A program made the translations under genes and the position numbers. From a virus (lineage: Duplodnaviria > Caudoviricetes): a stretch of 64,000 bases of DNA. The first letter of the stretch is position 1, and every line of letters begins with the position of its first letter. The stretch covers positions 1-64,000 of IMG/VR virus record IMGVR_UViG_3300024331_000007, one strand, 5' to 3'. This document shows, piece after piece, positions 11,096 through 34,653 of this stretch. Below the pieces are notes generated by a model. That model ran no database searches. It was not told the DNA's origin and saw nothing but the letters and a program-made list of their open reading frames with translations.

Positions 11096-11191
11096 TGGCG
11101 GTGAGTGTGAGATTCGAACTCACGAACCCTGTTTTTAGCAGGGTTACTACTTTTCCAGAGTAGCCGCATCATCCATCTCGCGCAACTCACC
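11096..11191 (-). tRNA. tRNA-Ser (GGA)
   Basis: CT-GGA-AA, variable arm, GCCA. Confidence 0.9.
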
Positions 11192-11199
11192 AAAACTTT

Positions 11200-11222
11200 T
11201 GGCGGAAAATAAATGAGTCGAA
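11200..11222 (-). pseudogene. tRNA 3' remnant (T-loop to CCA)
   Basis: Minus strand TTCGACT-CATTT-ATTTTCC-G-CCA with no 5' part. Confidence 0.6.
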
Positions 11223-11248
11223 ATTGAAGTTTCCGACTAAATACCTTC

Positions 11249-11878
11249 ATGCCGAATTTTACTACTCAACGATGCGCAGTATGCTTTTGCGAATTTAAAA
11301 GAACTACAAAAGATTCCGCATCTGCGCGTCTAAAAAATTGTGGGGAATCATATTGTTCCCGAAAATGTTTTGGTCTATCAATTCAAACCAAAGTTACTAT
11401 TTCTTGTACTAATTGCCAAAAACAAATTTACAAGATTGAGTCCCAACTGCGAAAAAGTGGCAACAATTTTTGTTCTCGCTCATGCGCCGCCACATACAAT
11501 AATACTCACAAAACTTACGGAACACGTCGATCAAAACTTGAAGTCTTTCTGGAATCTCAAATTCGAGAAGCCTATCCAAACTTGAAACTTCTGTGTAACG
11601 ACAAAACCGCTATTAATTCAGAACTCGATTTCTACTTTCCAGATTTGAATCTTGCTATCGAGTTAAATGGAATCCTTCATTTCGAACCCATCTACGGCCA
11701 TAACAAGTTGGATCAAATTCAATCAAATGACAACAAAAAAGCGTTTCTGTGCAACCAGAATCAAATAAATCTTGCAGTTCTTGATACATCTATGCATAAA
11801 AATTGTAGTCAGGCCGTTAGAACTAAGTTTTGGTCTATTGTTCGTTCTTTGCTTGACTCAAATATGGCGGAAGGCTGA
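11249..11878 (+). CDS. Cys-rich Vsr/DUF559-like PD-(D/E)XK endonuclease, copy 1
   Basis: CxxC/FCSRSC repeats, then SELDFYFP..LAIELNGILHF; stop lies inside tRNA-Ser(GCT). Confidence 0.75.
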   Translation: MPNFTTQRCAVCFCEFKRTTKDSASARLKNCGESYCSRKCFGLSIQTKVTISCTNCQKQIYKIESQLRKSGNNFCSRSCAATYNNTHKTYGTRRSKLEVFLESQIREAYPNLKLLCNDKTAINSELDFYFPDLNLAIELNGILHFEPIYGHNKLDQIQSNDNKKAFLCNQNQINLAVLDTSMHKNCSQAVRTKFWSIVRSLLDSNMAEG

Positions 11879-11956
11879 GAGCACGATTCCCAATGCCGCT
11901 AAGCGGCATCAATCTGTTTAGCAAACAGTTCCAGACACCCTTCTGGTTAACCTTCC
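11865..11956 (-). tRNA. tRNA-Ser (GCT)
   Basis: TT-GCT-AA, variable arm, GCCA. Confidence 0.9.
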
Positions 11957-12059
11957 ATATATCTATTTAGCAACTCGCCACAGTGTCGGGAATATTACCG
12001 ATCATTGCAACTTTAAACAGGGCCGACTTCTCTCGCTTGTCCTGTAAGTTAGCTAAAAT

Positions 12060-12137
12060 TGGTGCGTGGAGTGGGCCTCGAACCCACAAACCGTTAGCTC
12101 TCGACCAACGAGGTATGCCAATTCCCATCACCCACGC
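12060..12137 (-). tRNA. tRNA-Leu (GAG), atypical short variable loop
   Basis: GTTGG-TC GAG AG-CTAAC; A73; CCA. Confidence 0.7.
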
Positions 12138-12147
12138 AAAACTTTTC

Positions 12148-12269
12148 GGAACATACCGCGACGGGAATCGCACCCGCATTTGTTACGCAACTACTGTGCA
12201 TCACTTTGTTATTTCTTGCCCCGGTTTTTTAGACCAGCGCCTCTACTTTTCGGCTACACAGTACGTTCC
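12148..12269 (-). ncRNA. tRNA-like RNA, AAA anticodon, 13-bp acceptor helix, long variable insert, no CCA
   Basis: GGAACGTACTGTG/CGCGGTATGTTCC; D, anticodon and T arms recognisable. Confidence 0.65.
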
Positions 12270-12598
12270 AAACTAAACTTTCTACTGGCAGAATTGCAAT
12301 AAAACTGGTCAGTAGTAGAGCGACGATTTATATTAGCATTGCCGACTACTCAGTACATCATTGGGCTTTTCAGTCGCTCTCGTTCCTACTCAGTTGTTCC
12401 CAATTTCTCTTTTTCATACAGCAAAGCGGTGGAAGTCGTCAGGCTATTTTTCTCCCAATATCATTGATGTACGGTGGATCAAGCAACACAGCATATTCAA
12501 CATATATACTCTTGAGTCGCAGGTTATACAACCGTATTGTGTTGCCCATTTGATTATTCGTTCAAGGTTTATTAGTTCCTTGATTGTACATCAAACTT

Positions 12599-12674
12599 TG
12601 GAGGCGCAAGGGGGAATCGAACCCATCGATGGACAATTTTGCAGACTGCCGCCTTACCACTTGGCTATTGCGCC
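12599..12674 (-). tRNA. tRNA-Cys (GCA)
   Basis: CT-GCA-AA, U73, CCA. Confidence 0.9.
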
Positions 12675-12684
12675 TTGTTAAAAT

Positions 12685-12759
12685 TGGAGGTCGGGGTGAG
12701 AATCGAACTCACGAATAAAGGCTTTGCAGGCCCTTGCATTACCACTTTGCTACCCAACC
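12685..12759 (-). tRNA. tRNA-Cys (GCA)
   Basis: CT-GCA-AA, U73, CCA. Confidence 0.9.
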
Positions 12760-12765
12760 AAAAAC

Positions 12766-13020
12766 TTAATTGCCGCTGATTGTGCTTATGATAAATCCTG
12801 CAACAGACACACTCAGCATCAAAACGATAAGTACAATTTCTATTCCACCGATCAATGCAATCGCAAAATAAACTGCAACTGCGAGAAGCGCATGCCATTC
12901 ACCAGCAGGAATCAGGGATGCGACATAAGGTGCTAACTTGAAAAACAAAAGGTGAATCGTGTACCACACAGGAACAACTGCAATACCAATCGCCAGAAAC
13001 AGCTTCAATAGACTTTTCAT
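12766..13020 (-). CDS. small membrane protein
   Basis: Three hydrophobic segments. Confidence 0.6.
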   Translation of the reverse strand: MKSLLKLFLAIGIAVVPVWYTIHLLFFKLAPYVASLIPAGEWHALLAVAVYFAIALIGGIEIVLIVLMLSVSVAGFIISTISGN

Positions 13021-13036
13021 AATCATCCTTTCAAGA

Positions 13037-13110
13037 TGGAGCGGAATACGAGGCTCGAACTCGTGACTACAGACTGGCAATCTATCATGTTACCACTACA
13101 CTAATTCCGC
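13037..13110 (-). tRNA. tRNA-Gly (GCC)
   Basis: GCGGAAT/ATTCCGC, TT-GCC-AG, U73. Confidence 0.9.
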
Positions 13111-13119
13111 GTTAAGTCT

Positions 13120-13148
13120 ATTATACTACTTTCGGTTCCTCTTTGCAA
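13120..13148 (-). promoter_or_regulatory. sigma70-type promoter
   Basis: TTGCAA-17 nt-TATAAT just upstream of tRNA-Gly. Confidence 0.75.
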
Positions 13149-13271
13149 TCAAATTCTTTGCCAATTTTCGGGCTTCTGGACCTAATCTTTTGGTCAACAT
13201 ACGACGAATAGACTCTTTTGGTTGCTTTGACAGATGAGCCAAAATTGCTGCTTCTAGAATTGTGATTGTTG

Positions 13272-13622
13272 TCATTTTATACCTTTTTCAAGCAAATCAT
13301 ACAACAATAAAAACTCTTCATCTTTGGTCGAACACTGAGGACAATATGAATGATCGAATGTATCACAATCATATGGACTCATACCGTGTGACATTACCAC
13401 AATTTCGTGTGTTCCACATCTTTGACAATCTCCGCGAAGATTATACCAAAGTTTTCTGAGCCACTTTTTCATAGTGCCTTTCAATTGGGGTGACCGACGG
13501 GAGTTGAACCCGCAAGAACATGTTTCACAGACATGCCTAACATCCCCATAGTTAGCACGGCCACACTTGTTAGCAGGTAGATTCACTGCTGATTCTAAAC
13601 TTTTGGTAAGGCGCGATCCCAA
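13272..13622 (-). CDS. hypothetical Cys-containing protein (real start probably MKKWLRK)
   Basis: ORF track; upstream part overlaps tRNA-His. Confidence 0.45.
   Translation of the reverse strand: MGSRLTKSLESAVNLPANKCGRANYGDVRHVCETCSCGFNSRRSPQLKGTMKKWLRKLWYNLRGDCQRCGTHEIVVMSHGMSPYDCDTFDHSYCPQCSTKDEEFLLLYDLLEKGIK
13486..13564 (-). tRNA. tRNA-His (GTG)
   Basis: G-1:C73, CT-GTG-AA. Confidence 0.9.
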
Positions 13623-14170
13623 CCGATGTGCCTTACGTAACCCATTGACGTAATCGCCGCGTGATAACCCAGACTTGCATAATGCCTTGACAGCGTGTGC
13701 TCAGAAATGTTTGATGTTCCTCTGAACTCAGTGTATGGTTTACCCAGCAATTGATAATCACTTAATCTTCGTAGACCCGGATTCCAACTAAATCCGCCCC
13801 AATTCCAATTCGCATCTAGTGTGTCAACATCAAACTGTGGCAATCGAACAATTGGATGACCGTTTGTGTCGTTATGTTCTCTCAACCAGACTTGTAAAAT
13901 GTTTGGATACTTTTCAAGTATCTCCAAACTCTTTTCGATAAAACCCGGCTGATAAAATTCCCAATCGTCCTCGCAATGAAAGATGTATGGTGTCTTCACT
14001 CTCGCATACGCCTTATCAATACCTTGAACCTGCCCTTCCTTGTTCCAATCTTCCACAATGAAAACTTCCTTCATTGAATATGAATTGAAACTGTAGAAAC
14101 TCTGCAAGGTTCGTGCAAGCAAATCATTTCTGCCACATGATGTTACTACAAGTGTAATATCTGCGCTCAA
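13595..14170 (-). CDS. GT-A fold glycosyltransferase (family 2-like)
   Basis: LVVTSCGR..LL..TL.SF; FHCEDDWEF; TTG start after GAGGA. Confidence 0.75.
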   Translation of the reverse strand: MSADITLVVTSCGRNDLLARTLQSFYSFNSYSMKEVFIVEDWNKEGQVQGIDKAYARVKTPYIFHCEDDWEFYQPGFIEKSLEILEKYPNILQVWLREHNDTNGHPIVRLPQFDVDTLDANWNWGGFSWNPGLRRLSDYQLLGKPYTEFRGTSNISEHTLSRHYASLGYHAAITSMGYVRHIGWDRALPKV

Positions 14171-14184
14171 GCATTCCTCAAACT

Positions 14185-14262
14185 TGGTCGAAACGGCAGG
14201 AATCGAACCTACTTTTTCCAGCCCTCGTGTTGGCTGGTGCCACGCCATTCGGCCACGTAACG
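14185..14262 (-). tRNA. atypical/pseudo tRNA (Pro-like acceptor, 8-nt anticodon loop)
   Basis: C1:G72, A73, CCA; CCAGCC-AACACGAG-GGCTGG. Confidence 0.55.
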
Positions 14263-14479
14263 ACATTCAAAATTTTGTTTCTATTCTAAACCTAAATGCT
14301 TACGAATAGCATTAACTTTGGCGTGCTCTATTTCTTCGTCAGATGCATCTTCGTTAACTTTAATTTGTTGTCCTTTTTCTAAAGATTCCGCCTTTTCATT
14401 AAGCGTGTTTAGAAATTCTTCAACATCGGATGTGTCAACATCAATGCTAAATCCGTCCATAAATACCTCTTTAAAATTT

Positions 14480-14554
14480 TGGTCGGGGAGGGGAATGTCG
14501 AAATCCCGGCCCTTCCGCCCCAAACGGAATGCTCTGCCTCTGAGCTACTCCCCG
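14480..14554 (-). tRNA. tRNA-Pro (TGG)
   Basis: CGGGGAG/CTCCCCG, TT-TGG-GG. Confidence 0.9.
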
Positions 14555-15147
14555 TTATTCATTTGTTTTTGAATCACCGAGTTGACTATTGACCAATATT
14601 TATTTTTTGCAGATTGGTTCAAATATTTACAAGTCGATGAATCAATTATAGCAAGATTTATTTGTTTTTGACAGCAAAGAAAATATTTTTTACTATCGTT
14701 GCTTTGAATCTGTTCTAGTTTTTTGGTTCCGTATATTGGTTCAAAATGCAAAATGCCATTTAGCTCGATTGCTAATTTTAGCTCTGGAAAATAGAAATCA
14801 AGCTCTGAATTTATCGTTTCCTTGTCATTACACAGAAGTCGTAAATTTGGATAATGACTTCGAACTTCTCCCTCAAGAAAGATTTCAAGTTTTGAACGTC
14901 TTGATCCATGTTTCTTGCTTCTATTGTTATATGTTGCCGCGCACGAAGACGAACAAAATTTATATGTTCGTTTGTAAAAATTTAGAGCTTCTGAACATTG
15001 ACTACACTTTTTTGGTGATAATGCATACGTTTCGCGTATTTTCTTGGCATTTTTAGCAGATACTTTGCTACCTATTTTTCCAGCATTACAAATACTTATT
15101 TGCTGTCTGCCACTCTTGTAATATTCTGTTTCCTTCATGTTGATCAT
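14545..15147 (-). CDS. Cys-rich Vsr/DUF559-like endonuclease, copy 2
   Basis: Same SELDFYFPELKLAIELNGILHF core; stop inside tRNA-Pro 5' end. Confidence 0.75.
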   Translation of the reverse strand: MINMKETEYYKSGRQQISICNAGKIGSKVSAKNAKKIRETYALSPKKCSQCSEALNFYKRTYKFCSSSCAATYNNRSKKHGSRRSKLEIFLEGEVRSHYPNLRLLCNDKETINSELDFYFPELKLAIELNGILHFEPIYGTKKLEQIQSNDSKKYFLCCQKQINLAIIDSSTCKYLNQSAKNKYWSIVNSVIQKQMNNGE

Positions 15148-15199
15148 GTTACTATTTATGATCAGCGTAAAGAAACTCGAATTTATGATTTCAAATCTT

Positions 15200-15276
15200 T
15201 GGTCTCCGAATTCGGATTTGAACCGAAATTTCTACGCCCCGAACGTAGAGTAATAGCCAAGTTATACCATTCAGAG
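15200..15276 (-). tRNA. tRNA-Pro (CGG)
   Basis: TT-CGG-GG, CCA. Confidence 0.85.
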
Positions 15277-15286
15277 ATTAAACTTT

Positions 15287-15362
15287 TGGTGGCTCCCCTC
15301 GGTGTCGCACCGAGCTATCGTGTTCTTCAGACACGCGCTTTCTCTGGATTAGCTTGAGAGCC
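15287..15362 (-). tRNA. tRNA-Phe (GAA)
   Basis: CT-GAA-GA, CCA. Confidence 0.9.
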
Positions 15363-15372
15363 ATTTCTAAAT

Positions 15373-15446
15373 TGGTCAGGGAGGGGAATTACGATATCCC
15401 GACACGAGTTTCCAGAACTCGGATGTTGCCTCTACACTACCCCCTG
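15373..15446 (-). tRNA. tRNA-Pro-like (TGG, C33)
   Basis: CAGGGGG acceptor, CGAGT-TCTGGAA-ACTCG. Confidence 0.65.
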
Positions 15447-15674
15447 ATAAATCAATGTCTGGGAAACTTCAAGGGTTTCACACCCTTTCGGTTTGCAGGA
15501 CACCTACCCTGCAAGTAGGCTTTCCCAAAGCTTAAAATCAGCCGCACTTAGCGGAACAACGGTCTTACTCAGATTCCCAACAATCTTATATGTTGCTGTA
15601 CACACAACATATTTAATGGAACGGAATCACTGCCTTTGCCAAGAGATTTACATGCCTGACTCTTGCCTCAATCT

Positions 15675-15758
15675 TGGTGCCCGAAGAGGGACTTGAACCC
15701 CCACGCCTTGCGGCACTGGCTTCTAAGACCAGCGTGTCTGCCATTTCACCATTCGGGC
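15675..15758 (-). tRNA. tRNA-Leu (TAG)
   Basis: CT-TAG-AA, variable arm with GCAA loop. Confidence 0.92.
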
Positions 15759-15847
15759 ATAAACAATCTTGAAACTGTACAACTAATAGTTATGCGGTCA
15801 AACTCCAATGTAAGCCGCGTGTTGTTTCAACAACTGTTTGAATCTTT

Positions 15848-15922
15848 TGGTGGACGCGGAGAGAATCGAACTCTCAATTTCTGGATGCAAACCAAATGTG
15901 TTCCCATTAGCACTACGCGCCC
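15848..15922 (-). tRNA. tRNA-Ala (TGC)
   Basis: G3:U70, TT-TGC-AT. Confidence 0.9.
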
Positions 15923-16018
15923 ATACATCTAAACTTTGACTTATCGCTCTCTGCGACTGAATGAAGCCTATCATTCAGGAAAGGATTTACACACGGTATG
16001 ACCTTTCCAAGTCCAATC

Positions 16019-16093
16019 TGGTGTTCGTGGGCAGACTTGAACTGCCATCTTAACCTTCGCAGGGTTGCGATCTATCCATTGATCTACACGAAC
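16019..16093 (-). tRNA. tRNA-Arg (GCG)
   Basis: CT-GCG-AA, CCA. Confidence 0.85.
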
Positions 16094-16245
16094 ATAATCT
16101 TTGTCCGATGGTCTACCGTCAACTGCCCGGTTCCTGCGGCGTCGGACACGCCATATTACAAACTTTTTGAAAGTCTCAAGTTTTAACTTTCATTGCTGAT
16201 AATTTCTAGTGTCAGAGCCTTCGCTCTTTTCTATATCAGTCAAAT

Positions 16246-16320
16246 TGGTGGATACGGGGAGACTCGAACTCCATCTTGTTCTTTGCGAAAGAACTGCTCG
16301 CCCAATTGAGCTACCGACCC
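16246..16320 (-). tRNA. tRNA-Ala (CGC)
   Basis: G3:U70, TT-CGC-AA; two acceptor mismatches. Confidence 0.8.
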
Positions 16321-16561
16321 ATGAAATTTACGCGCTGTAGGGTACGTTGACAATCCACATTCAGCGACTACTGTCAGAGTATGCATCCCAAACCTTAGAA
16401 AGTTTCGTACTCAGTTTGGACTCTCACAATCAAACTTGTATATGTCGTGCCAGTAGGCGAAGCTGGATTTCTGAGCGTTTATGATTTAGTGCTCAGTGTA
16501 TTCGAAGGTTCAAGGCTTACGAACCATTCAGCGCCTTATACGACTACGACATTCTAAAACT

Positions 16562-16648
16562 TGGTGCATGGTGAAGGACTCGAACCTCCGTATCCCCGAA
16601 GGGAAGATGCTCTACAGGCACCCGCAATTGCCGCTCTGCCAACCATGC
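16562..16648 (-). tRNA. tRNA-Tyr (GTA)
   Basis: CT-GTA-GA, UUCG variable arm. Confidence 0.9.
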
Positions 16649-16728
16649 ATACTACAAAATGATGCTGCCAACCCCACAATCCTTCGTCCGACAGCGTAAT
16701 GTTACACTTTCCGTAACATCCCCTAATT

Positions 16729-16808
16729 TGGTGGATCGTGTGGGAATTGAACCCACCTGAATATCTTTCATGCCATGAAAGCGATCACCCCAAGTAATCC
16801 TACGACCC
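16729..16808 (-). tRNA. tRNA-Ala (GGC)
   Basis: G3:U70, AT-GGC-AT. Confidence 0.8.
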
Positions 16809-16826
16809 AAAATCCTTCCTAAAACT

Positions 16827-16856
16827 CAAAAGCCCCTAACCTTTCGGCTAGAGGCT
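16827..16856 (-). terminator. intrinsic terminator / attenuator hairpin ahead of tRNA operon
   Basis: AGCCTCTAGCC-GAAA-GGTTAGGGGCT-TTT. Confidence 0.75.
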
Positions 16857-16877
16857 GGATAGAAAAATCCAATGACC

Positions 16878-16967
16878 TTAGCCGTTGATACCTGCTGGCG
16901 CAAAAAGACGGGCACATGCTGGATAGCTTGCGGGTTCGAGATGCGAGTTTGAGCTAAGTAGAGACAT
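16878..16967 (-). CDS. putative leader peptide MSLLSSNSHLEPASYPACARLFAPAGING
   Basis: 29 codons, 22 nt after TATAAATA, ends 22 nt before terminator. Confidence 0.6.
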   Translation of the reverse strand: MSLLSSNSHLEPASYPACARLFAPAGING

Positions 16968-16989
16968 TGTTTTCTTTTCCAACCTTCTG

Positions 16990-16997
16990 TATTTATA
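16990..16997 (-). promoter_or_regulatory. late promoter TATAAATA
   Basis: Exact T4 late consensus. Confidence 0.7.
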
Positions 16998-17012
16998 CTA
17001 CACGGTTATTTA

Positions 17013-26669: not shown

Positions 26670-27104
26670 TTATCTTCCGCGCAATACAGAAGGATCAAAC
26701 TTTTTCATTGCCGCAGCATATTTACGATCAATCCACGTTCCATCCGGTCTTTTAGCGTGAATCGGTATGATTACCTCAGCCTCAAATACTTGAGAGTTTT
26801 TGGCTATTACTTTCCCATCTCGTGTAGCTGGATTTTGACAATAGTGTGGAGCAAACCAAACATGACCTCCGCTCCAACCACAATTTTTACAAACCAATAA
26901 TCCATTACAAGAACTTGGATCAGTTCTAATTTCTTCGCGAACAAACATTATCTTGTCTTCGTGAACCTCGTGTTCACTTCCATCTTCGTCAATCTTTACA
27001 AGGCATGAATCGGTGTTAATTATGGCAAGCACGGTTCCAAGATCATCGTGGCTTTTGTATGGACTTGTAATTGCAAGAACTCTATCGCCTTTTTGAAAAA
27101 TCAT
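26670..27104 (-). CDS. hypothetical protein (SH3/KOW-like N-terminus)
   Basis: FQKGDRV...GTVLA. Confidence 0.5.
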   Translation of the reverse strand: MIFQKGDRVLAITSPYKSHDDLGTVLAIINTDSCLVKIDEDGSEHEVHEDKIMFVREEIRTDPSSCNGLLVCKNCGWSGGHVWFAPHYCQNPATRDGKVIAKNSQVFEAEVIIPIHAKRPDGTWIDRKYAAAMKKFDPSVLRGR

Positions 27105-27949
27105 GTGTTCCTTTCTTAACCAACACGAACCACAGCATTGCGATTTATATTTGGACCCCATTCAGGTGTGTAGTAACCATCAAAATGCTTTTTCGTGATT
27201 TTTGTTACGTGTGATACGGCCTCTGGATAATCAGTTCCTCCAGTAATCACAGTCGCATCCTGCGGCATCTTTTGCAATTCCAAAATCAATTCGCCAACTG
27301 TCATATTTCACCGCTTTCACTTTCCAAAATGTTCAGAACTTTTTCTTCGACGGCAAGGATTGGACACCATTTCGGAATGGGATTGATTTCACTGTCCCAT
27401 TCAACGTAACCAGAAGTTCCACGGAAGCCGTGTTCCGCTTTTTTGTCAGGTTTCAGTTTACAAAAATAGTCTGTAGCATATCCAGAACCCGGCGTGTGTG
27501 CTGAACCAGCGTAAGGACAGCAAATATTGTCATCTCCGTTGTTAACGCATCGATCAATGTTTATAACAATTTTTGCCACAGTAAGCCTTTCAAGATTCTA
27601 ATTTTTTCAGAAGCTTTTCTTGAATATCCAACCAAGCATATTTCCATGATTCTTCAATTGATACTGTCGATGATCCCAATAAGGTTCTCGGTCTACCAAA
27701 CCAATTTGTTTTCGGAGTTTCGGTGTGGATTTCCCACTGAATGCCAAATATATCTGGGCGACATTTGGCATCAGGATAGATCATCTTGACATTTTCTTCA
27801 TCTGTCATAATTGATTATATCACACAAAACACCAAAGGCCAGCTAAATTTTAGCTGACCAGCATGGAACAGTTTCGAACCAATTACAGTGTAAACATCAA
27901 TAAAGTTTGTATTTAATACACTGAGATTACATGTATTATATTGACACCC

Positions 27950-28856
27950 GATGGATTATGCCGTCTCTTGCGAAGACCGTCCGTGAGGACTTCGGTTTCC
28001 CATCACATCCACTAAGCCCTTTATTCAAGGTATCCTAGTCTGTCAACATCGTCGCCTTTTTTGAAGTCAGGCAGTGGACTTGTCTGATAAGGTTATTCTA
28101 CGCTCTCCATCCCGTCTGTTTTGCGAACAGTTCGAAGCCGCTAAGCCCCTACGAAATTTCCTGCACAAACTATCGCAACCTTGCGAGTCTTGATAGACTT
28201 GATTCTCTTGCGAGTCAAGCATTAGACGATTTTCGCCTTATCACGGAGCAGACTTTGCTTTTTGTAAGAAACAGTCAGAATCGAACTGACTACCCTCTGT
28301 TTAATAGACAGATGCTCTACCAATTGAGCTTTGTTTGCAACCCACATCATGTGCTGCTCCAGTTGCCAAGCCAGATTTTGTCCAGCCTGATACAACACAT
28401 GACATACCTTTCTTCTGCGGAATACTCAGTGGTACTTCACGAAAAATGTGCTTGCGCCCATTCTCCGTTCATACTGCATTTCAGCCCTAGCTTGCGAAGG
28501 CTCAGACCAAAACACTACCCTTTCCATTACGGAATAACAAGTTGATACGATAGGAAGACAGCATCACCTGTTTCTTTTCAATTGCCAAAGTTCCCTATCC
28601 CGAAGGCGTCGGCTTATAAACAATTGTTCTTTCCCTATCACTTGCGTCCTCTTTACAACCACCGCTTTTTTCAGTGATCGCCGTCTCGCGACGGATGGGA
28701 GGCTTGCATAGACGGACTAATTGCTTAGCGCAAGTGCGTAGGCTTCCTTGCTTTGGGCACCTCACGGTGCTTATCCTAATGGGGCTATGCCCCCAATCTT
28801 GTTTTCAAACATCTTTGCGAATCACCATATGATTCGGTTGCGTCAACTCAGCAACA
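27950..28856 (-). ncRNA. large structured RNA, GOLLD-like, with embedded tRNA-like domain
   Basis: ~900 nt with no credible ORF, many GCAA/GAAA/GTGA/GCGA-capped hairpins, own promoter, tRNA-cluster context. Confidence 0.65.
28266..28338 (-). tRNA. tRNA-Asn-like (ATT) inside the large RNA, no CCA
   Basis: AGCTCAATTGGTAGAGC D arm, TCTGT-CT ATT AA-ACAGA, GTTCGATTC. Confidence 0.65.
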
Positions 28857-28861
28857 TTTCA

Positions 28862-28890
28862 ATTCTACACATATTACATTTGTTTTTCAA
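28862..28890 (-). promoter_or_regulatory. sigma70-type promoter for the large RNA
   Basis: TTGAAA-17 nt-TAGAAT with extended TG. Confidence 0.7.
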
Positions 28891-29772
28891 GCAAATTATG
28901 TAGAAATTTGGACCCGTCCGACCATCCAATCATTTTCTGGATTGAAACAGTATTTCTTTTATCTTACATCTTGTTCAGTAGTTTGTCAACTACTATTTTA
29001 CTTTTTTCTTCCGACTGTTTTTGACCAGTGCGCAAAACGACTATATGCACGATCAACGGCACCTTCGTACCTTTCCATCAGAAAGATAACCAATAATACA
29101 AATAGCGAAACACCTACCAATACAGTAGCAATCATAAATGCTAAGCCTAGTGGCATGTATGTTTCCTTTCCAACTTTCTTAGAATATCGTAGTTTGATTC
29201 GTTTGTCAACTACTTTCTGAAAATTATTTTTCGATCTGCTGTAAATTCCAATTCACCGTCTGCAATCATTCGTGACAATGAGCTTCTCACATCATTATCA
29301 TAATACGGAGGGACGTGATCGCCTAACATATCCAGCAATTCTGTTGGATGCAATGGATTTTCTTTATGCATAAGGACAATCTGCAAAATACGTGTTTCAA
29401 CTGGAACAGGGTCGCCTTCTAAAACCCATTTCATTATTGGTTTTTGAACGAATTGTCCCATCACTTGTGTTTACTCTTTCGATTGTTTTCGGCCCACTTC
29501 CTAATATCACGAGCCGCTTTCCTGTATTCTGCGGGAGAGTGCGCCCGTACAAATTTTGTATCAATGTCAGCAATCATCAGTCCGATTGCCTGATATTCTT
29601 CTCTCATGTCGGAAATCAATTGAAGTTTTCGCAATGTCGGTAACTTTGTATATTGTGCCAAACTTGACGTAATGCTTGCTTCCTGTGAATCCATGCGAAT
29701 ATCTATACGTTTCATGGACCGATCCTTATTCCGTCTCGGTCCAGAATAAACTGGACCGATTCGAGGTTGTGC

Positions 29773-30033
29773 TTACTTCTTTACTGCATGTTTGATTTGC
29801 GAAGCCGCGTGGGAAACTCCCTTTACCGCACCAACTACAAGATACTTACCTGTGCCATAAACATCTTCAACAACTGTCTTTGTCACCTTGAATGTATCCA
29901 CCGAAACATGCTCAACGATCTTGCCTGTCTCCTTGACAACTGCCTTTCCGCCGCTATAAACATCGTCGGAAGCGAATGCAGGGGTTCCGCTCATCAGAAT
30001 TGCAAATGTTGCAAAAACAAAAATCTTCTTCAT
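29773..30033 (-). CDS. secreted protein with 11-aa quasi-repeats
   Basis: Signal peptide MKKIFVFATFAILMSGTPAFA; G..VV repeats. Confidence 0.6.
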   Translation of the reverse strand: MKKIFVFATFAILMSGTPAFASDDVYSGGKAVVKETGKIVEHVSVDTFKVTKTVVEDVYGTGKYLVVGAVKGVSHAASQIKHAVKK

Positions 30034-30046
30034 TATTTTTTCCTCT

Positions 30047-30769
30047 TTAGAAAATTGGCTTGCACGATCCTAAAACTTGATTGTACTCAGCCGTCATTTG
30101 TTCAGGTGTCCATTGGTAATGAAACGCCCACCTGTTTTGTTTGTTAAAGTTGCTCAATCTCGTTCCTAGCAACGTATGTCTGCTTATGTAATAAGGCAGA
30201 TTCAGCTTCTTGAAGTGCATCAAGTATAGCGAATCATTTGATTCTACCATACCAGAGGGGGTATTTGTCAAACTATGGCATCCCGCTGCATAACGAATAT
30301 CCAAATTTGGGTTGAAAATCATTCTCTTATCGAAACTGACCGCTCTTGCACCGTTTTGATACACAAATGGAAGATTCTCGTCTGGTTTCAATTCACAGTT
30401 TGGTACAATCTCATAGCCTGTGACCTTTGGAAGCGTTACACCAGTATTTTTGTAAAACTCTAATCTTTCTGAGAGTTGGGGGTGAAATAAAAACTCATCC
30501 ACATCACATACAAGAACCCAATCGGCCTCGCCGCGTGATTCTTTATAGCAACTCTGCTTTATCTCCACATAACGATGCTCGTTTATTTCGTTGTTGCTAC
30601 TCCATGAACGAATTTCAGCTTTCGGACATGCGCGAACAATTTCAGGAGTTCGATCAGTTGATTCGTTATCGTAAATGACTATCTTATCGCAAAATTCTGA
30701 ATAGTAACGAAGAAAATAAGGCATAATGACTTCTTCGTTCCATGCAATGGCGTAGACATGTATTTTCAT
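30047..30769 (-). CDS. glycosyltransferase family 2-like
   Basis: AWNEEVIMPYFLRYY...DNESTDRT...WVLVCDVDEF. Confidence 0.8.
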   Translation of the reverse strand: MKIHVYAIAWNEEVIMPYFLRYYSEFCDKIVIYDNESTDRTPEIVRACPKAEIRSWSSNNEINEHRYVEIKQSCYKESRGEADWVLVCDVDEFLFHPQLSERLEFYKNTGVTLPKVTGYEIVPNCELKPDENLPFVYQNGARAVSFDKRMIFNPNLDIRYAAGCHSLTNTPSGMVESNDSLYLMHFKKLNLPYYISRHTLLGTRLSNFNKQNRWAFHYQWTPEQMTAEYNQVLGSCKPIF

Positions 30770-30776
30770 AGGAGTT

Positions 30777-30857
30777 TGGTAGCCGGGGTAGGATTCGAAC
30801 CTACGATCATATCTTTCTTGTAAGGAAAGCGGTTTGGGCCACTCACACCACCCGGCC
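30777..30857 (-). tRNA. tRNA-Val (TAC)
   Basis: CT-TAC-AA, A73, CCA. Confidence 0.85.
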
Positions 30858-30860
30858 ATG

Positions 30861-31367
30861 TTAACTAATCAATTGTACTTCCACAACTTCGGCTCCAGTG
30901 AATCCACCGAAATAATCATCGCTGACATATTCTTCGTATGGCTTACCAGCATCATTCCAAATCGTAACCATCTTGTGACTGCCGCTCTTGTACTTGTTCA
31001 GAGCGGCACAAGACTTGTCTGCCAACTTTTCGTCACGATACAACTCTACAAATTCAATCCTGCCAGTATCGGAACCAAAACTATCGCCCGTGTCGTGCAA
31101 ATAGTATAACAGGTAATACGTCTTGTTCGGTTCTATTTCAAACATGCAATCAATATCGCCATATGAAGGATGAACCCTGATTCCGCGAATGTGATGCGAC
31201 GTGTGGGTAGAATCCCTGCCCCACGAATCTTCGGGATCAGCATACGATGTTACGTCTGTGTACGAATCATCTTCAACAGAAACGTGTGTGATCTTTGGCA
31301 GAATCTCGTTAATCTTCTTTGCTGCCTTCTTCTGCTGCGTGATCTTTGACATTTGAAACCCTTTCAA
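30861..31367 (-). CDS. hypothetical protein
   Basis: ORF track. Confidence 0.6.
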   Translation of the reverse strand: MKGFQMSKITQQKKAAKKINEILPKITHVSVEDDSYTDVTSYADPEDSWGRDSTHTSHHIRGIRVHPSYGDIDCMFEIEPNKTYYLLYYLHDTGDSFGSDTGRIEFVELYRDEKLADKSCAALNKYKSGSHKMVTIWNDAGKPYEEYVSDDYFGGFTGAEVVEVQLIS

Positions 31368-31487
31368 ATCCTGTGTTTGACATCAAAAACTTTGTCCCAT
31401 CTGGACAGACAATGTATATCTCCGAAACTTTTGCCAGCTTTCGAATAATATCTTGATTCTCAAATAGAAGTTTCAAGTCTTTCATAT

Positions 31488-31562
31488 TGGAGTTCTCGGC
31501 GGGGATCGAACCCGCATTATCAATTTAGGAAATTGAAGTCCTATCCGTTGAACGACAAGAAC
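31488..31562 (-). tRNA. tRNA-Arg (CCT)
   Basis: TT-CCT-AA, CCA. Confidence 0.85.
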
Positions 31563-31567
31563 AAAAT

Positions 31568-31651
31568 TGGTAGGGGAGGAGGGACTCGAACCCCCAAGGC
31601 TCTTTCATTTTGAGTGAAAACTGTCTGCCGTTCCAGCTTAACCACTCCCCC
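31568..31651 (-). tRNA. tRNA-Leu (CAA), short variable region
   Basis: CT-CAA-AA, A73. Confidence 0.8.
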
Positions 31652-32391
31652 ATAAACTTTCGGTTGTTTGCTACTAATAGGTATTGTTTTCTCTCTGCCC
31701 TCTTGTCACTATTCCGACATTCGGTACTTCTTTGCTACCAATTGACGTTCATCATTACATCAGTATTTATACGAACTTCGCCAAGTAATTGAATAACCAC
31801 TGGTCGAAACTTCCGCATTCGTCAGTATAGCCTACAGTATAGCATGCGGAGACGAGTTTGTGTGCATCTTTTAATTGACTCATTGAGTCTGAAAATTGTT
31901 TACCAAAATCTTTAGTTTTTTCAAGCCATTCGAAAAATGAATCGTCCAAATCAGCATCCTCGTCTTCAGGTGCTGGATCAACTTCAGGTTTCATGGAGAA
32001 AATGAAACTCGGATCGTTACAAATAACTAACCCGTAATCTCCAGTTTTCATTGCATTTCCATCTTGAGTTGCTAGCACTAAAAAGAAATCAGGCAACACT
32101 TCTTTGCCATCATTCATAAGAATTGCTTTTGCGCTGCATTGCTCACACATGTTAGGACTCGTTTATACCTTTCATATACCATTCAATAAAATCCATGACG
32201 AGTGAACCAATTCCACTGAATATTAGTGCAATCGAAGATACTAGCGTTGCCAATATCCACCAATACGGAACATGATGGCTGATTGGAATCTCCGCTTTTA
32301 TCAATAGACAACACGCAACGCCGTAAAGTAAAAGTATAATCAATCCGCCCAAAGCGAATAAAAATCCGTTCTCAAACAACTTTCTCATACT

Positions 32392-32781
32392 TCACTTCCA
32401 AAGACTTCGAATTGCAAAAACCATTTTCCAAAACTTTAATTGAATCTCGTCAATGAATGCGCCTTTGACTTTCGCATCGAAGTTTACGGCGCTTGGTACT
32501 CTGCCGATTCCCGGCAATTGATCGAAACCCTTTTGTCCATCTTCGCGCTGTAGTAGACGCCATGCGCCATCTTTGATTCTAATAACTTGGCCCGTAAAAA
32601 CTCCCTGAGTTGGATTCGTACTTTTCTTCCAACCATCACAAGTGCATTTGTATGGCGATACGCGACCATTACAAGGTTCGATACATCCACCAAACCACAC
32701 AGAGCCTTGTTTGACTAATCGATTTGCTTCTGCACCTGATCGCGCCATCTTGAGCAATACTAATGCTTTTACAAGTCTCAT
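32392..32781 (-). CDS. S4-like RNA-binding domain protein with Cys insert
   Basis: LVKALVLLKMARSGAEANRLVKQGSV resembles TyrRS C-terminal S4 domain. Confidence 0.6.
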   Translation of the reverse strand: MRLVKALVLLKMARSGAEANRLVKQGSVWFGGCIEPCNGRVSPYKCTCDGWKKSTNPTQGVFTGQVIRIKDGAWRLLQREDGQKGFDQLPGIGRVPSAVNFDAKVKGAFIDEIQLKFWKMVFAIRSLWK

Positions 32782-32790
32782 GATTTTCTT

Positions 32791-33216
32791 TCAATTAGCA
32801 AGATAGTGAAGCGTGACAAAGTTTGGATCGGCATATGCTACTTGCTTGCTTGTTTTATAAACCAATTGAGCATTGAACTTTTTATCTTCAACTGTTTTGC
32901 CTTCCGTGTAGGCATTTGTTCCGCGAACTCGTTGAAGAACAACATAATAATTGTCTTCAAAACGGGTTAATACAATTCCTTTATCTTTTGCGTTCGGTCC
33001 AATCTTTTTGGCTGATTCGTCGGACAATTGGCTGTAATCCATAAAATATTCAATTTTATGTTTTTCAAAGCCGACTATCTTAAAGAGAGTCAATTCTCCA
33101 TTCCCGAAAACAGCAGTTACAAAATCATTCTTTTGAAGTTCGCGATTTACGGCATCGGGCAATGAGGTTAGCTCAGTTTTTGTCGTTGTGTTAAAGTATA
33201 ACGATTTCTTAGCCAT
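32791..33216 (-). CDS. hypothetical early protein
   Basis: ORF behind sigma70 promoter. Confidence 0.6.
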   Translation of the reverse strand: MAKKSLYFNTTTKTELTSLPDAVNRELQKNDFVTAVFGNGELTLFKIVGFEKHKIEYFMDYSQLSDESAKKIGPNAKDKGIVLTRFEDNYYVVLQRVRGTNAYTEGKTVEDKKFNAQLVYKTSKQVAYADPNFVTLHYLAN

Positions 33217-33222
33217 ACATCC

Positions 33223-33251
33223 ATTATACCAAAAATCACAGCAGGAGTCAA
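33223..33251 (-). promoter_or_regulatory. sigma70-type promoter
   Basis: TTGACT-17 nt-TATAAT. Confidence 0.85.
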
Positions 33252-33277
33252 TTAAAAATAAGTCCTTTGTTTTGAGT

Positions 33278-33352
33278 TGGTTGGCCCTGACTGAATCGAA
33301 CAGTCATCTCACAGTAATCGGCTGTGGGTATTTTCCATTATACGAAGGGCCA
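33278..33352 (-). tRNA. tRNA-Ile (GAT)
   Basis: CACAG-CC GAT TA-CTGTG. Confidence 0.75.
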
Positions 33353-33924
33353 ATAATCAATAGTGCAACATTCTCAAAAACTCTTTCATTACAAAGTTGT
33401 ATGCGTCAATCCATGCTTTGTTTTTGTTCGGGCTGCTCTCTTTATTTGTTTCCAGCCATAATCCATTTGTTTTGCCGTTTGACGGAACTAAAATTGAGAA
33501 CCGAGTGCCGATTGTCTCGCACCCGTACGTGTGTAAAATGGCATGGGGATACATTTCCAATACCTTTTTACGTGCATCAATCGCTTTTCTGCTCAGTTTC
33601 ATGGCTTATCTCTCGATAGAATTTCAGCAATCGTTGTAGTCTATTGCTGTCTGATTCTCTGTTGTAAGCATGCCTACAGCTATCAGAACAGAAGCCCCAA
33701 TGATCGGCAAGTTTCCGATTTCTAAAAAATCGTTTAAAACAATACAGGCATCGGTATTTGTACATACTACTATTTACAGTGGATGTTGTATTTCCAATGG
33801 TATAAATCTTGACAGTTCCTACAACAAAAACATAACCGAAAAGGAGAATTGATTTTATTCAATTCACTTTTAGGGCCGAGTTTTGTGTAACAGTACAGAC
33901 AACGATATATAGCCATAATGTTTT

Positions 33925-34004
33925 TGGTAGGCGCGGTTGGATTCGAACCAACGACCTGTTTCTTATCAGGAAACTGCTCTGAAACCGGGCTGAGCTACGC
34001 GCCT
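33925..34004 (-). tRNA. tRNA-Ile (GAT)
   Basis: CT-GAT-AA, CCA. Confidence 0.9.
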
Positions 34005-34010
34005 ATAAAT

Positions 34011-34085
34011 TGGCTGGGGGTGAAGGATTCGAACCCTCATAGACTGATTCAAAGTCAGTCGTCCTAGCCATTGAACGAACCCCCA
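34011..34085 (-). tRNA. tRNA-Gln (TTG)
   Basis: U1:A72, G73, CT-TTG-AA. Confidence 0.9.
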
Positions 34086-34092
34086 TTAAATT

Positions 34093-34179
34093 TGGTGGAC
34101 AGTAGAGGATTTGAACCTCTAGTTTTGTTATTTACTACCCTTCAGAGGTAGTGCGTCTGCTCTATTCCGCCAACCGCCC
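34093..34179 (-). tRNA. atypical tRNA: Leu-type body, G3:U70, loop TC-TGA-AG
   Basis: GGGCGGT/ACTGTCC; CTACC/GGTAG stem. Confidence 0.55.
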
Positions 34180-34193
34180 ATATGTTTCTAAAA

Positions 34194-34281
34194 TGGTACA
34201 CAGGGTAGGAGTTGAACCTACAGGATTTTGGTGTTTGCATCTTCTAAAAATGCTGCGTCTACCGACTTCCGCCACCTGTGT
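34194..34281 (-). tRNA. tRNA-Leu (TAG)
   Basis: TT-TAG-AA, Leu-type D loop. Confidence 0.85.
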
Positions 34282-34644: not shown

Positions 34645-34653
34645 ATATAAACT

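What the first reader, a model, noticed from the sequence alone, without database searches (positions are those of the whole stretch)
16810..16997. Leader-peptide attenuator at the head of a tRNA operon
Seen: TATAAATA late promoter, a 29-codon ORF, then a terminator (AGCCTCTAGCC-GAAA-GGTTAGGGGCT-TTT) just before a run of more than 20 tRNA genes. The stop region CGGCTAAGG is complementary to the terminator 5' arm CCTCTAGCCG, giving an antiterminator. Established: amino-acid operon attenuators work this way. Inference: a ribosome reaching the stop blocks the antiterminator, while stalling upstream (tRNA shortage or cleavage) lets tRNA genes be transcribed, i.e. a general tRNA-depletion sensor.
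Basis: partly seen in the sequence, partly recalled or inferred. Interest (0 to 1): 0.75.

Follow-up and report, generated by a model that had tools for sequence, protein, structure and literature searches.

The report
Codon-matched leader attenuator before phage tRNAs
A tiny translated gene and an RNA stop/go switch sit in front of a giant soil phage's tRNA gene block, and the tiny gene is written in the codons those tRNAs read, so the phage probably makes more of them only when ribosomes run short of them.

Summary
The finding is real and lies on the minus strand. It consists of a sigma-70-type promoter, a 29-codon ORF, a small hairpin, an 11-bp terminator, then tRNA-Ala and 14 more tRNA genes.

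- **Conservation:** 11 relatives keep the whole module. The ORF is always open, at 27-39 codons, and always stops at TAAG.
- **Terminator:** it shows compensatory changes.
- **Antiterminator:** the stop-codon region can pair with the terminator's 5' arm in every relative. Formal covariation for this helix is weak.
- **Codon match:** 18 of the 28 sense codons after the ATG are read by the tRNAs downstream (p about 0.0005 against the phage's own genes).
- **Second module:** an unrelated module at 38379-38193 has a perfect 10-nt antiterminator/terminator repeat. Its Lys/Asn/Ile/Gln-rich leader matches its own Lys/Asn/Asp/Gln/Trp tRNA array (25 of 29 codons).
- **Genome scan:** a scan of the whole 360-kb genome finds only these two modules.
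- **Other phages:** unrelated leaders in other phage contigs also match their own tRNA sets (permutation p = 4/40320).

Best reading: a ribosome-mediated attenuator that senses supply of the tRNAs it controls.

The promoter is not a T4-type late promoter, and the block holds 15-17 tRNAs, not more than 20.

This scan has noted the same design before on other phage DNA. My literature searches found no published description, and there is no expression evidence.

The parts
16995..17023 (-). Sigma-70-type promoter: TTGACA (17023-17018), 17-nt spacer holding ATGATAAATAA, TAGTAT (17000-16995). The predicted start is near 16988.
   Evidence: One search gives 10 of 12 matches. All relatives keep it, up to 12 of 12 in L010. 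The class TTGACA-N-ATGATAAATAA-NNN-TGTA has 61 exact hits in public phage and metagenome contigs.
16978..16986 (-). Conserved 5'-UTR motif AAGGTTGGA, complementary to the junction of the small hairpin and the terminator 5' arm (TCCAGCCT). Its role is unknown.
   Evidence: 8 pairs, -12.7 kcal/mol, shuffle p = 0.006 in the window. The pairing is kept in 7 of 11 relatives and lost in L006, L010 and L011.
16878..16967 (-). Leader ORF of 29 codons plus TAA (MSLLSSNSHLEPASYPACARLFAPAGING).
   Evidence: It is open in 11 of 11 relatives at 27-39 codons with in-frame indels, always stops at TAAG, and the other frames carry stops. Column entropy by codon position is 0.67/0.73/1.01. A Shine-Dalgarno-like AAGGA or GGAG sits 5-8 nt upstream in the relatives but is weakened in the window.
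16876..16884 (-). 5' strand of the antiterminator (CGGC-TAA-GG). It spans the stop codon.
16856..16871 (-). Small hairpin P1 (TGGAT / ATCCA). It abuts the terminator and caps the antiterminator helix.
   Evidence: It is present in every relative with changed sequence, for example TAGGA/TCCTA in L010 and ATTGA/TCAAT in L011.
16831..16856 (-). Terminator hairpin, 10-11 pairs, GAAA loop.
   Evidence: 96% of cells paired, 4 pairs changed on both sides, and 0 of 500 shuffles reach the covariation score.
16821..16831 (-). T tract TTTTGAGTTTT.
   Evidence: It is conserved in 10 of 11 relatives.
16729..16808 (-). First regulated gene: tRNA-Ala(GGC) with G3:U70, an unusual D arm and an encoded CCA end.
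   Evidence: ARAGORN. It is absent from the Rfam tRNA matches at gathering score, and the only family match listed there is a sub-threshold tmRNA hit. A tRNA-Ala follows the terminator within 5-30 nt in 8 of 11 relatives.
11096..16808 (-). tRNA block 1: Ala, Tyr, Ala, Arg, Ala, Leu, Pro, Pro, one unassigned, His, Gly, Cys, Cys, Leu, Ser, with homing-endonuclease-like ORFs in between.
38351..38379 (-). Second module, promoter: TTGACA, 17 nt, GAAGAT, followed by the same AAATACAG as module 1.
   Evidence: The relative L294 has TTGACA...TAGTAT of the same class.
38248..38340 (-). Second module, leader ORF of 30 codons plus TAA (MKNISNISINKQQINKIDSASVWNNQEDKL). It has no Shine-Dalgarno sequence and is nearly leaderless.
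   Evidence: The relative has MKNVNNNSIAKQNINWNKEDIV.
38193..38247 (-). Second module, switch. GCGAGGATTT (38247-38238) directly follows the stop. AAATCCTCGC is at 38226-38217. GCGAGGATTT is repeated at 38212-38203, followed by a T-rich tail.
   Evidence: the free RNA folds as antiterminator (-27.1 kcal/mol), and the terminator (-16.2) forms only when the stop region is masked.
24130..37789 (-). tRNA arrays behind the second module: Lys, Lys, Asn, Asn, Asp, Gln, Trp, Trp, Glu x3, Leu, Ser, Gln, Ile x2 and more. An endonuclease-like ORF (about 38184-37775) is inserted between the switch and the first tRNA.
   Evidence: In relative L294 the tRNA-Lys genes follow the switch directly.

Best explanation
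This is a ribosome-mediated (leader-peptide) transcription attenuator that gates a block of phage tRNA genes.

Proposed steps:
1. Host RNA polymerase starts at a strong sigma-70-type promoter and transcribes a short leader, which a ribosome translates.
2. The nascent RNA first forms an antiterminator. The segment spanning the leader's stop codon pairs with the 5' arm of the terminator, with a small hairpin on top.
3. If the ribosome runs quickly to the stop codon it covers that segment. The 5' arm is then free to form the terminator, and transcription ends 12 nt before the first tRNA gene.
4. If the ribosome is slow or stalled earlier in the leader, the antiterminator persists and the polymerase reads into the tRNA genes.

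The leader is written mostly in codons read by those same tRNAs. The circuit therefore reports whether that set of tRNAs is in short supply and corrects it, as a supply homeostat.

Shown by sequence analysis: the parts, their conservation, the alternative pairing and the codon match.

Inferred: translation of the leader, termination at the hairpin, and the kinetic coupling between them.
For: 1. All parts are present and in the right order.
2. Eleven relatives, down to 77% identity in a neighbouring protein, keep promoter, ORF, TAAG stop, small hairpin, terminator and T tract.
3. The ORF is kept as an ORF while its sequence drifts. Indels are in frame, the other frames carry stops, and the third codon position is the most variable. 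The Phe-Ala-Pro triplet is kept in 10 of 11 relatives through synonymous changes.
4. Terminator: 96% of cells paired, four pairs changed on both sides, 0 of 500 shuffles as good.
5. The local fold before the 3' arm exists gives the stop-region:5'-arm helix in 11 of 11 relatives, at -12.5 to -20.9 kcal/mol. It beats shuffles at p = 0.001-0.06 in 9 of 11. L052 has a compensatory C:G to U:A change, GGC to GGT with TAGCC to TAACC.
6. No promoter-like site lies between terminator and first tRNA, here or in L008, L010 and L011.
7. Codon match for leader 1: 18 of 28 codons are read by block 1 (p = 0.00045 against in-frame segments of phage genes; p = 0.008 against shuffles). In relatives: L247 22 of 27 and L011 23 of 38, both p < 0.0002.
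8. An independent second module in the same genome has a perfect switch, and 25 of 29 leader codons are read by its own array. The reciprocal test gives Fisher p = 0.0003. A relative keeps the same switch with a different Lys/Asn-rich leader directly before three tRNA-Lys genes and a tRNA-Asn.
9. Whole-genome scan: 34 terminator-like hairpins, 10 with a short ORF ending just upstream, and only these two with the antiterminator pairing.
10. Eight unrelated leader families from different phage contigs match their own tRNA sets better than swapped sets (4 of 40320 permutations).
Against: - There is no expression evidence, so translation, termination and readthrough are all inferred.
- In a fixed register the antiterminator helix has only weak formal covariation. 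It is 80% paired, 26 of 500 shuffles reach that, and 51 of 500 reach the covariation score. In L011, L247 and L283 the pairing uses a shifted register.
- In leader 1 the terminator (-24.6 kcal/mol) is more stable than the antiterminator (-18.8), so the switch must work kinetically.
- The window's own Shine-Dalgarno sequence is weakened, AAAGAAA against AAGGAAA in the near-identical L256.
- Leader 2 has no Shine-Dalgarno sequence.
- No conserved anti-antiterminator (1:2) or pause hairpin was found.
- The codon match is absent in L052 (10 of 26, p = 0.49) and weak in L010 (15 of 29, p = 0.09). L010's leader has four Thr codons but its block has no tRNA-Thr.
- The T tract is interrupted (TTTTGAGTTTT).
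- The host is unknown, so transcription-translation coupling is unverified.
Confidence: 0.72

Rival explanations
1. This is a stand-alone small gene, coding a micropeptide of about 29 residues or acting as a small RNA, with its own promoter and its own terminator. The tRNAs behind it are made by leak-through or from transcripts started further upstream. The complementarity to the terminator arm has no function.
For: - Promoter, ORF and terminator form a complete transcription unit of about 160 nt.
- Some residues are conserved, notably Ala-Ser-Tyr, Cys, Arg and Phe-Ala-Pro.
- In L008 the next tRNA lies about 400 nt after the terminator, and in L007, L010 and L011 about 100 nt after it.
- The antiterminator covariation is weak.
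Against: - It does not explain why the leader's codons match the downstream tRNAs. It also does not explain why a second, unrelated leader matches a different tRNA set, or why the match holds across eight families.
- The peptide drifts at all codon positions and varies in length from 27 to 39 residues.
- In 8 of 11 relatives the first tRNA starts 5-30 nt after the T tract with no room for a promoter.
- The alternative pairing is present in 11 of 11 relatives.
Confidence: 0.12
2. This is a nascent-peptide (arrest-peptide) sensor. The conserved core of the leader peptide stalls the ribosome through the exit tunnel in response to some ligand or state, as with TnaC, SecM or ErmCL. The stall, not tRNA supply, sets the terminator/antiterminator choice.
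For: The Phe-Ala-Pro triplet and the Ala-Ser-Tyr...Cys-Ala-Arg core are kept through synonymous changes in most relatives. The switch architecture is the same as in the main explanation.
Against: - The conserved residues are exactly those whose tRNAs lie in the block: Ala, Tyr, Cys, Arg, Phe and Pro.
- Leader 2 and the leaders of other phages share no peptide motif, yet each matches its own tRNA set.
- L011 and L052 have diverged through most of the core.
Confidence: 0.08
3. The two hairpins are processing or stability elements of the tRNA precursor, for example a protective 3' hairpin left after RNase P cuts at the tRNA 5' end, or a nuclease entry site. The ORF is incidental.
For: The hairpins lie directly in the 5' leader of the first tRNA. 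The phage carries its own RNase P RNA at 19454-20103. The tail TTTTGAGTTTTAGG is more conserved than a T tract needs to be.
Against: - The ORF, its start, its frame and its TAAG stop are kept in 11 of 11 relatives.
- Most relatives have a Shine-Dalgarno-like sequence.
- The codon match is left unexplained.
- The hairpin plus T tract fits an intrinsic terminator.
Confidence: 0.05

Closest known systems
Leader-peptide transcription attenuators of amino-acid biosynthetic operons (trpL, hisL, leuL, pheL, thrL, ilvL of enterobacteria; textbook knowledge)
   Same: - The layout is promoter, short translated leader enriched in 'regulatory' codons, mutually exclusive antiterminator and intrinsic terminator, then the regulated genes.
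- A ribosome at the leader's stop codon covers the antiterminator's 5' strand and favours termination.
- Like ilv and thr, the leader samples several amino acids at once.
   Different: - The regulated genes are tRNA genes, not enzymes. The product that relieves the stall is the tRNA itself, which makes the feedback loop shorter.
- The element is phage-encoded.
- No conserved 1:2 anti-antiterminator or pause hairpin was found, so an untranslated leader should read through rather than super-attenuate.
- The regulatory codons are spread over the whole leader rather than clustered in a run.
pheST (pheM leader) attenuator of E. coli phenylalanyl-tRNA synthetase (from my own knowledge, not checked here)
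   Same: Attenuation by a leader peptide controls a component of the translation apparatus in response to the supply of charged tRNA.
   Different: It controls a synthetase, responds to one amino acid, and belongs to a cellular operon. Here whole multi-specificity tRNA arrays of a virus are controlled.
T-box riboswitches (Rfam RF00230)
   Same: They sense tRNA status and act through a terminator/antiterminator choice.
   Different: T-boxes bind uncharged tRNA directly through a specifier loop and need no translation. No T-box match was found in the window, and here a conserved ORF is the sensing element.
Codon-matched leader plus terminator modules noted earlier by this scan in other phages (e1-3258323, e1-3450868, e1-4038560, e1-4045671; AI notes, not publications)
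   Same: The design is the same: promoter, mini-ORF spelling the downstream tRNA repertoire, terminator/antiterminator, tRNA array.
   Different: The phage lineages and leader sequences differ. This window adds two modules in one soil jumbo phage and a shared promoter class that links many such modules.

Membership tests
Ribosome-mediated (leader-peptide) transcription attenuator | A promoter followed by a short ORF with a start codon and ribosome-binding site | tested here: met
   The promoter scores 10 of 12 here and up to 12 of 12 in relatives. The ATG ORF of 27-39 codons is present in 11 of 11 relatives, and most have a Shine-Dalgarno-like AAGGA or GGAG 5-8 nt upstream. The window's own Shine-Dalgarno sequence is weak.
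Ribosome-mediated (leader-peptide) transcription attenuator | An intrinsic terminator between the leader and the regulated genes | tested here: met
   An 11-pair hairpin plus T tract lies 12 nt before the first tRNA. It shows compensatory changes. Termination itself was not measured.
Ribosome-mediated (leader-peptide) transcription attenuator | An alternative antiterminator structure that excludes the terminator | tested here: met
   The stop-region:5'-arm helix appears in 11 of 11 relatives by local folding and beats shuffles in 9 of 11. There is one clear compensatory change, but formal covariation is weak. The second module has a perfect 10-nt repeat.
Ribosome-mediated (leader-peptide) transcription attenuator | The ribosome's position on the leader decides which structure forms (the stop codon lies in or next to the antiterminator's 5' strand) | tested here: met
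   The geometry fits. The stop codon lies inside CGGC-TAA-GG in module 1 and directly before the repeat in module 2. Masking -15 to +12 around the stop switches module 2 from antiterminator to terminator. This is geometry only, not function.
Ribosome-mediated (leader-peptide) transcription attenuator | The leader is enriched in codons that report on the regulated product | tested here: met
   18 of 28 codons match for leader 1 and 25 of 29 for leader 2, each p about 0.001 or better against phage genes. The reciprocal Fisher test gives 0.0003. Across eight families, 4 of 40320 permutations do as well. The match is not met in relative L052.
Ribosome-mediated (leader-peptide) transcription attenuator | An anti-antiterminator (1:2) or pause hairpin that synchronises ribosome and polymerase | tested here: inconclusive
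   Codons 4-5 (CTTAGC) can pair with the stop region in the window, L008 and L009, but not in L007 or L010. This pairing is not conserved.
Ribosome-mediated (leader-peptide) transcription attenuator | Readthrough depends on leader translation and on the supply of charged tRNA | not testable with these tools
   This needs reporter assays, Term-seq or ribosome profiling.
T-box riboswitch | Match to the T-box covariance model (specifier loop and T-box sequence) | tested here: not met
   No match at the gathering threshold in the window. No match at E up to 10 in 16600-17100.
T4-type late promoter (TATAAATA) | The octamer is enriched in the genome, conserved, and stands alone without a -35 element | tested here: not met
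   There are 21 copies on both strands, against about 41 expected from my own base-composition estimate. The octamer is not kept in L009, L010, L011 or L247, whereas TTGACA-17-TAnnnT is.

The most novel reading that the evidence does not exclude
Codon-matched leader-peptide attenuators may be a widespread and so far undescribed way for large phages to control their tRNA arrays. Each array would sit behind a 'test' ORF that samples exactly the codons the array decodes. Phage tRNA output would then be tied to real-time decoding speed, for example when host tRNAs run out after host shut-off or are cut by anticodon-nuclease defences. A shared sigma-70-type promoter class (TTGACA-N-ATGATAAATAA-NNN-TGTA) marks many of these units in uncultured soil and freshwater phages.
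Probability: 0.6. Interest if true: 0.88.

Novelty: new variant of a known kind. Interest (0 to 1): 0.8.

Why it matters
Why phages carry tRNA genes, and how they control them, is still debated. Proposals include codon-usage compensation, replacing degraded host tRNAs, and escape from anticodon nucleases.

A leader whose codons mirror the tRNAs behind a terminator would show that the phage measures decoding speed for those very codons and adjusts tRNA synthesis to match. That would extend classical attenuation from amino-acid and synthetase genes to tRNA genes.

It gives a simple, testable handle (reporter fusions, codon swaps, tRNA depletion) on when phage tRNAs are needed. It also gives a sequence signature for finding the regulatory units of tRNA arrays in uncultured phages, and possibly a compact natural sensor of tRNA supply for synthetic biology.

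Tried and rejected
- **RNA evidence:** no RNA holder was listed for the stretch. The one read-laying run showed DNA contigs only. It did reveal a relative at about 88% identity in run X4, whose homology ends 1 nt upstream of the ATG, but its letters could not be retrieved.
- **GenBank phages:** only a tRNA-Tyr match was found.
- **Neighbouring proteins:** The search for related loci with the 104-aa and 165-aa neighbours found nothing.
- **Distant relatives L002-L004** (55-62% identity) have a different gene order and were not informative.
Only L052 and L119 from these scans carried the module.
- **T4-type late promoter:** rejected.
- **Known RNA family:** rejected. Rfam gives nothing at the gathering threshold and only noise at E up to 10.
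- **Whole-leader structure:** the MFE is not better than shuffles (z = -0.94). RNAalifold on full leaders recovers only the terminator.
- **Conserved 1:2 anti-antiterminator:** not found.
- **Alternative genetic code:** not needed. Under table 11, stop-to-stop frames of 150 codons or more already total about 90,000 codons, roughly 270 kb of the 360 kb.
- **Thr codons tracking a tRNA-Thr in the block:** this holds for the window, L009, L247 and L011 but fails for L010, whose full block has none.
- **More modules of the same kind elsewhere in the genome:** none beyond the two.

Full report
**Context.** The window is the first 64 kb of a 359,890-bp IMG/VR phage record from soil. It uses the standard genetic code. 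It carries 44 tRNA genes by ARAGORN, a GOLLD RNA and an RNase P RNA. Every feature of the finding lies on the minus strand.

**What is there.** Reading the minus strand, the order is:
- the 104-codon ORF listed upstream ends at 17013;
- TTGACA at 17023-17018, a 17-nt spacer, then TAGTAT at 17000-16995;
- a short 5' UTR;
- ATG at 16967 and 29 codons to TAA at 16880-16878;
- a 5-bp hairpin (TGGAT/ATCCA, 16871-16856);
- directly abutting it, an 11-bp hairpin with a GAAA loop (16856-16831) and the tail TTTTGAGTTTT;
- 12 nt later, tRNA-Ala(GGC) with the G3:U70 identity pair (16808-16729);
- fourteen further tRNA genes down to 11096, interspersed with endonuclease-like ORFs.

CGGCTAAGG pairs with CCTCTAGCCG as 6 + 3 pairs around one bulged C. 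The duplex is -10.9 kcal/mol, in the top 1% of random 20-mers of the genome.

**Two details are wrong.**
- TATAAATA is not a promoter signal in this genome. It occurs 21 times on both strands, against about 41 expected from my own base-composition estimate. It is also not conserved in relatives.
- The block holds 15-17 tRNAs, not more than 20.

**How relatives were found.** GenBank phages gave nothing useful. A neighbouring RNA-ligase-like protein (17635-18234) has many metagenomic relatives at 77-90% identity. Their contigs, plus contigs found through the promoter motif, gave eleven copies of the module:
- the window;
- L006, L007, L008, L009, L010 and L011;
- L052, which is identical to L119;
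- L247, L257 and L283;
- a truncated near-identical copy, L256.

**What all relatives keep.**
- The promoter is kept, and is a perfect 12 of 12 consensus in L010.
- The ATG ORF is kept.
- The stop is always TAAG.
- The small hairpin, the terminator and the T tract are kept.

**The ORF behaves like a translated leader rather than a conserved protein.**
- Its length varies from 27 to 39 codons, and in the closer relatives the length differences are in-frame insertions of 3 and 6 nt.
- The other two frames carry stops.
- Most relatives have AAGGA or GGAG 5-8 nt before the ATG.
- Substitutions fall at all three codon positions, with the third the most variable (entropy 0.67/0.73/1.01).
- A few positions are kept through synonymous changes, notably Phe-Ala-Pro.

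**RNA structures.**
- *Terminator.* The helix is 96% paired across ten distinct sequences. Four pairs changed on both sides, and no shuffle out of 500 reached its covariation score.
- *Small hairpin.* It is kept with different sequences: TAGGA/TCCTA in L010 and ATTGA/TCAAT in L011.
- *Antiterminator, folding.* I folded the RNA that exists before the terminator's 3' arm is made. In 11 of 11 relatives the result is one extended hairpin: the stop-codon region pairs with the 5' arm and the small hairpin sits on top. Energies run from -12.5 to -20.9 kcal/mol, against -17 to -29 for the terminator form. This beats shuffles of the stop region at p = 0.001-0.06 in nine of eleven.
- *Antiterminator, variants.* The pairing survives changes. 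Three relatives swapped two adjacent pairs of the terminator, which turned the bulged helix into 7-8 contiguous pairs. L052 changed GGC to GGT together with TAGCC to TAACC. L011, L247 and L283 use shifted registers.
- *Antiterminator, covariation.* In one fixed register the formal support is weak: 80% paired, 26 of 500 shuffles reach that, and 51 of 500 reach the covariation score. I count the antiterminator as conserved, but not as proven by covariation.
- *Promoter position.* No promoter-like site lies between terminator and first tRNA, here or in L008, L010 and L011. In 8 of 11 relatives a tRNA-Ala starts within 5-30 nt of the T tract. Polymerases that start at this promoter must therefore read through the terminator to reach the first tRNAs.

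**Codon match.**
- With standard wobble rules, 18 of the 28 sense codons after the ATG are read by the tRNAs of block 1.
- Those codons make up 30% of codons in the phage's long ORFs. The leader is more extreme than 99.95% of in-frame 29-codon segments, and p = 0.008 against composition-matched shuffles.
- Relatives with known blocks:

| Relative | Leader codons read by own block | Shuffle p |
|---|---|---|
| L247 | 22 of 27 | < 0.0002 |
| L011 | 23 of 38 | < 0.0002 |
| L010 | 15 of 29 | 0.09 |
| L052 | 10 of 26 | not significant |

- L010's result uses its full block.
- The residues kept across relatives (Ala, Tyr, Cys, Arg, Phe, Pro, Gly) are amino acids whose tRNAs lie in the block.

**A second module.**
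- *Layout.* Upstream of the other tRNA array lies a promoter of the same type (38379-38351) and a 30-codon ORF (38340-38248). Directly after the TAA comes GCGAGGATTT, then an 11-nt loop, AAATCCTCGC, TACG, GCGAGGATTT again, and a T-rich tail.
- *Folding.* Free RNA folds as the antiterminator (-27.1 kcal/mol; z = -3.5 against shuffles). The terminator (-16.2) forms only when the nucleotides a ribosome would cover at the stop codon are masked.
- *Leader.* It is rich in Asn, Ile, Lys, Gln, Ser and Asp and includes Trp and Glu. The array behind it starts Lys, Lys, Asn, Asn, Asp, Gln, Trp, Trp, Glu. Of its 29 codons, 25 are read by that array and only 4 by block 1, while leader 1 shows the reverse preference (Fisher p = 0.0003).
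- *Relative.* L294 has the identical switch, a different 22-codon Asn/Lys-rich leader, and three tRNA-Lys genes and a tRNA-Asn directly behind it. The endonuclease-like ORF between switch and tRNAs in the window is therefore an insertion.

**Specificity and generality.**
- I scanned the whole genome, both strands, without using any tRNA information. It holds 34 terminator-like hairpins. Ten have a 12-60-codon ORF ending within 70 nt upstream. Only two also have the stop-region:5'-arm pairing, and these are the two modules.
- The same scan on contigs fetched through the promoter motif found unrelated leaders in front of other tRNA arrays. One example is a 23-codon leader containing Lys-His-Ile-Gln-Gln-Tyr-Cys-Ile-Arg-Trp-Phe, followed by tRNAs for Trp, Ile, Lys, Gln, Cys, Arg, Phe and His.
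- Over eight leader families, pairing each leader with its own tRNA set beats all but 4 of 40,320 permutations at the codon level, and all but 12 at the amino-acid level.

**Interpretation.** The best reading is a ribosome-mediated attenuator whose regulated genes are tRNAs and whose leader samples the codons those tRNAs read. Fast decoding brings the ribosome to the stop codon, removes the antiterminator and terminates transcription. Slow decoding leaves the antiterminator in place, and the tRNA genes are transcribed.

It differs from the trp type in two ways:
- No conserved 1:2 hairpin was found, so an untranslated leader should read through.
- The regulatory codons are spread over the leader.

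In leader 1 the switch must be kinetic, because the terminator is the more stable form.

**Weak points.**
- There is no expression evidence at all.
- The window's own Shine-Dalgarno sequence is weak, and leader 2 is nearly leaderless.
- The host is unknown.

**Comparison with what is known.** Six literature searches found no description of attenuators in front of phage tRNA genes. Earlier agents of this scan have reported the same design on other phage DNA. Those are unchecked AI notes that agree with what I tested here independently. I rate this a new variant of a known kind.

Noticed in passing
window 17023-16995 (-), 26563-26515 (-), 38379-38351 (-); loci L012-L293: The promoter belongs to a sharply conserved class, TTGACA-N-ATGATAAATAA-NNN-TGTAnnAT. 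It has 16 exact hits in IMG/VR and 45 in metagenome contigs for a 21-base pattern. Many of the hits stand in front of short ORF + terminator + tRNA arrays in otherwise unrelated uncultured phages. Why the spacer is conserved is unknown.
   Followed up: partly
window 16986-16978 (-) with 16859-16852 (-): The 5'-UTR motif AAGGTTGGA is complementary to the junction of the small hairpin and the terminator 5' arm. The pairing is 8 pairs at -12.7 kcal/mol, with shuffle p = 0.006, and is kept in 7 of 11 relatives. It could be a second antiterminator or a link to translation initiation. It remains unexplained.
   Followed up: partly
window 16880-16836 (-): Read in the leader's frame past its TAA, the next two stops are TAG codons, one inside each arm of the terminator. 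The phage carries tRNAs with anticodons TTA and CTA (25202-25279, 24878-24953, 24352-24428). By my reading of L006 the in-frame TAGs are not kept there, so this may be chance.
   Followed up: no
window 16729-16808 (-): The first tRNA after the terminator is a tRNA-Ala with G3:U70 and an unusual long D arm. ARAGORN calls it. It is absent from the Rfam tRNA matches at gathering score, and the only family match listed there is a sub-threshold tmRNA hit. The odd form is conserved in L007, L257 and L247, with anticodon GGC or TGC.
   Followed up: partly
window 27918-28405 (-): There is a full-length GOLLD RNA (Rfam RF02032, 194 bits) with a tRNA-Asn(ATT)-like element inside it at 28266-28338. A strong terminator follows at 27859-27837.
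   Followed up: no
window 19454-20103 (-): A bacterial class-A RNase P RNA (118 bits) is stretched to 650 nt by an HNH-endonuclease-like ORF at 19610-20002. Another agent has already followed this up (e1-5401991).
   Followed up: no
window 37775-38184 (-): An endonuclease-VII/HNH-like ORF lies between the second attenuator and its first tRNA-Lys. The relative L294 lacks it. It looks like a homing-endonuclease insertion inside the regulated unit. Similar ORFs interrupt block 1, for example at 14545-15147.
   Followed up: partly
window 38428-38386 (-): A further consensus promoter (TTGACA, 17 nt, TATAAA) with an 11-codon mini-ORF (MQTAFSPAKIK) lies just upstream of the second module's promoter. 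Its role is unknown.
   Followed up: no
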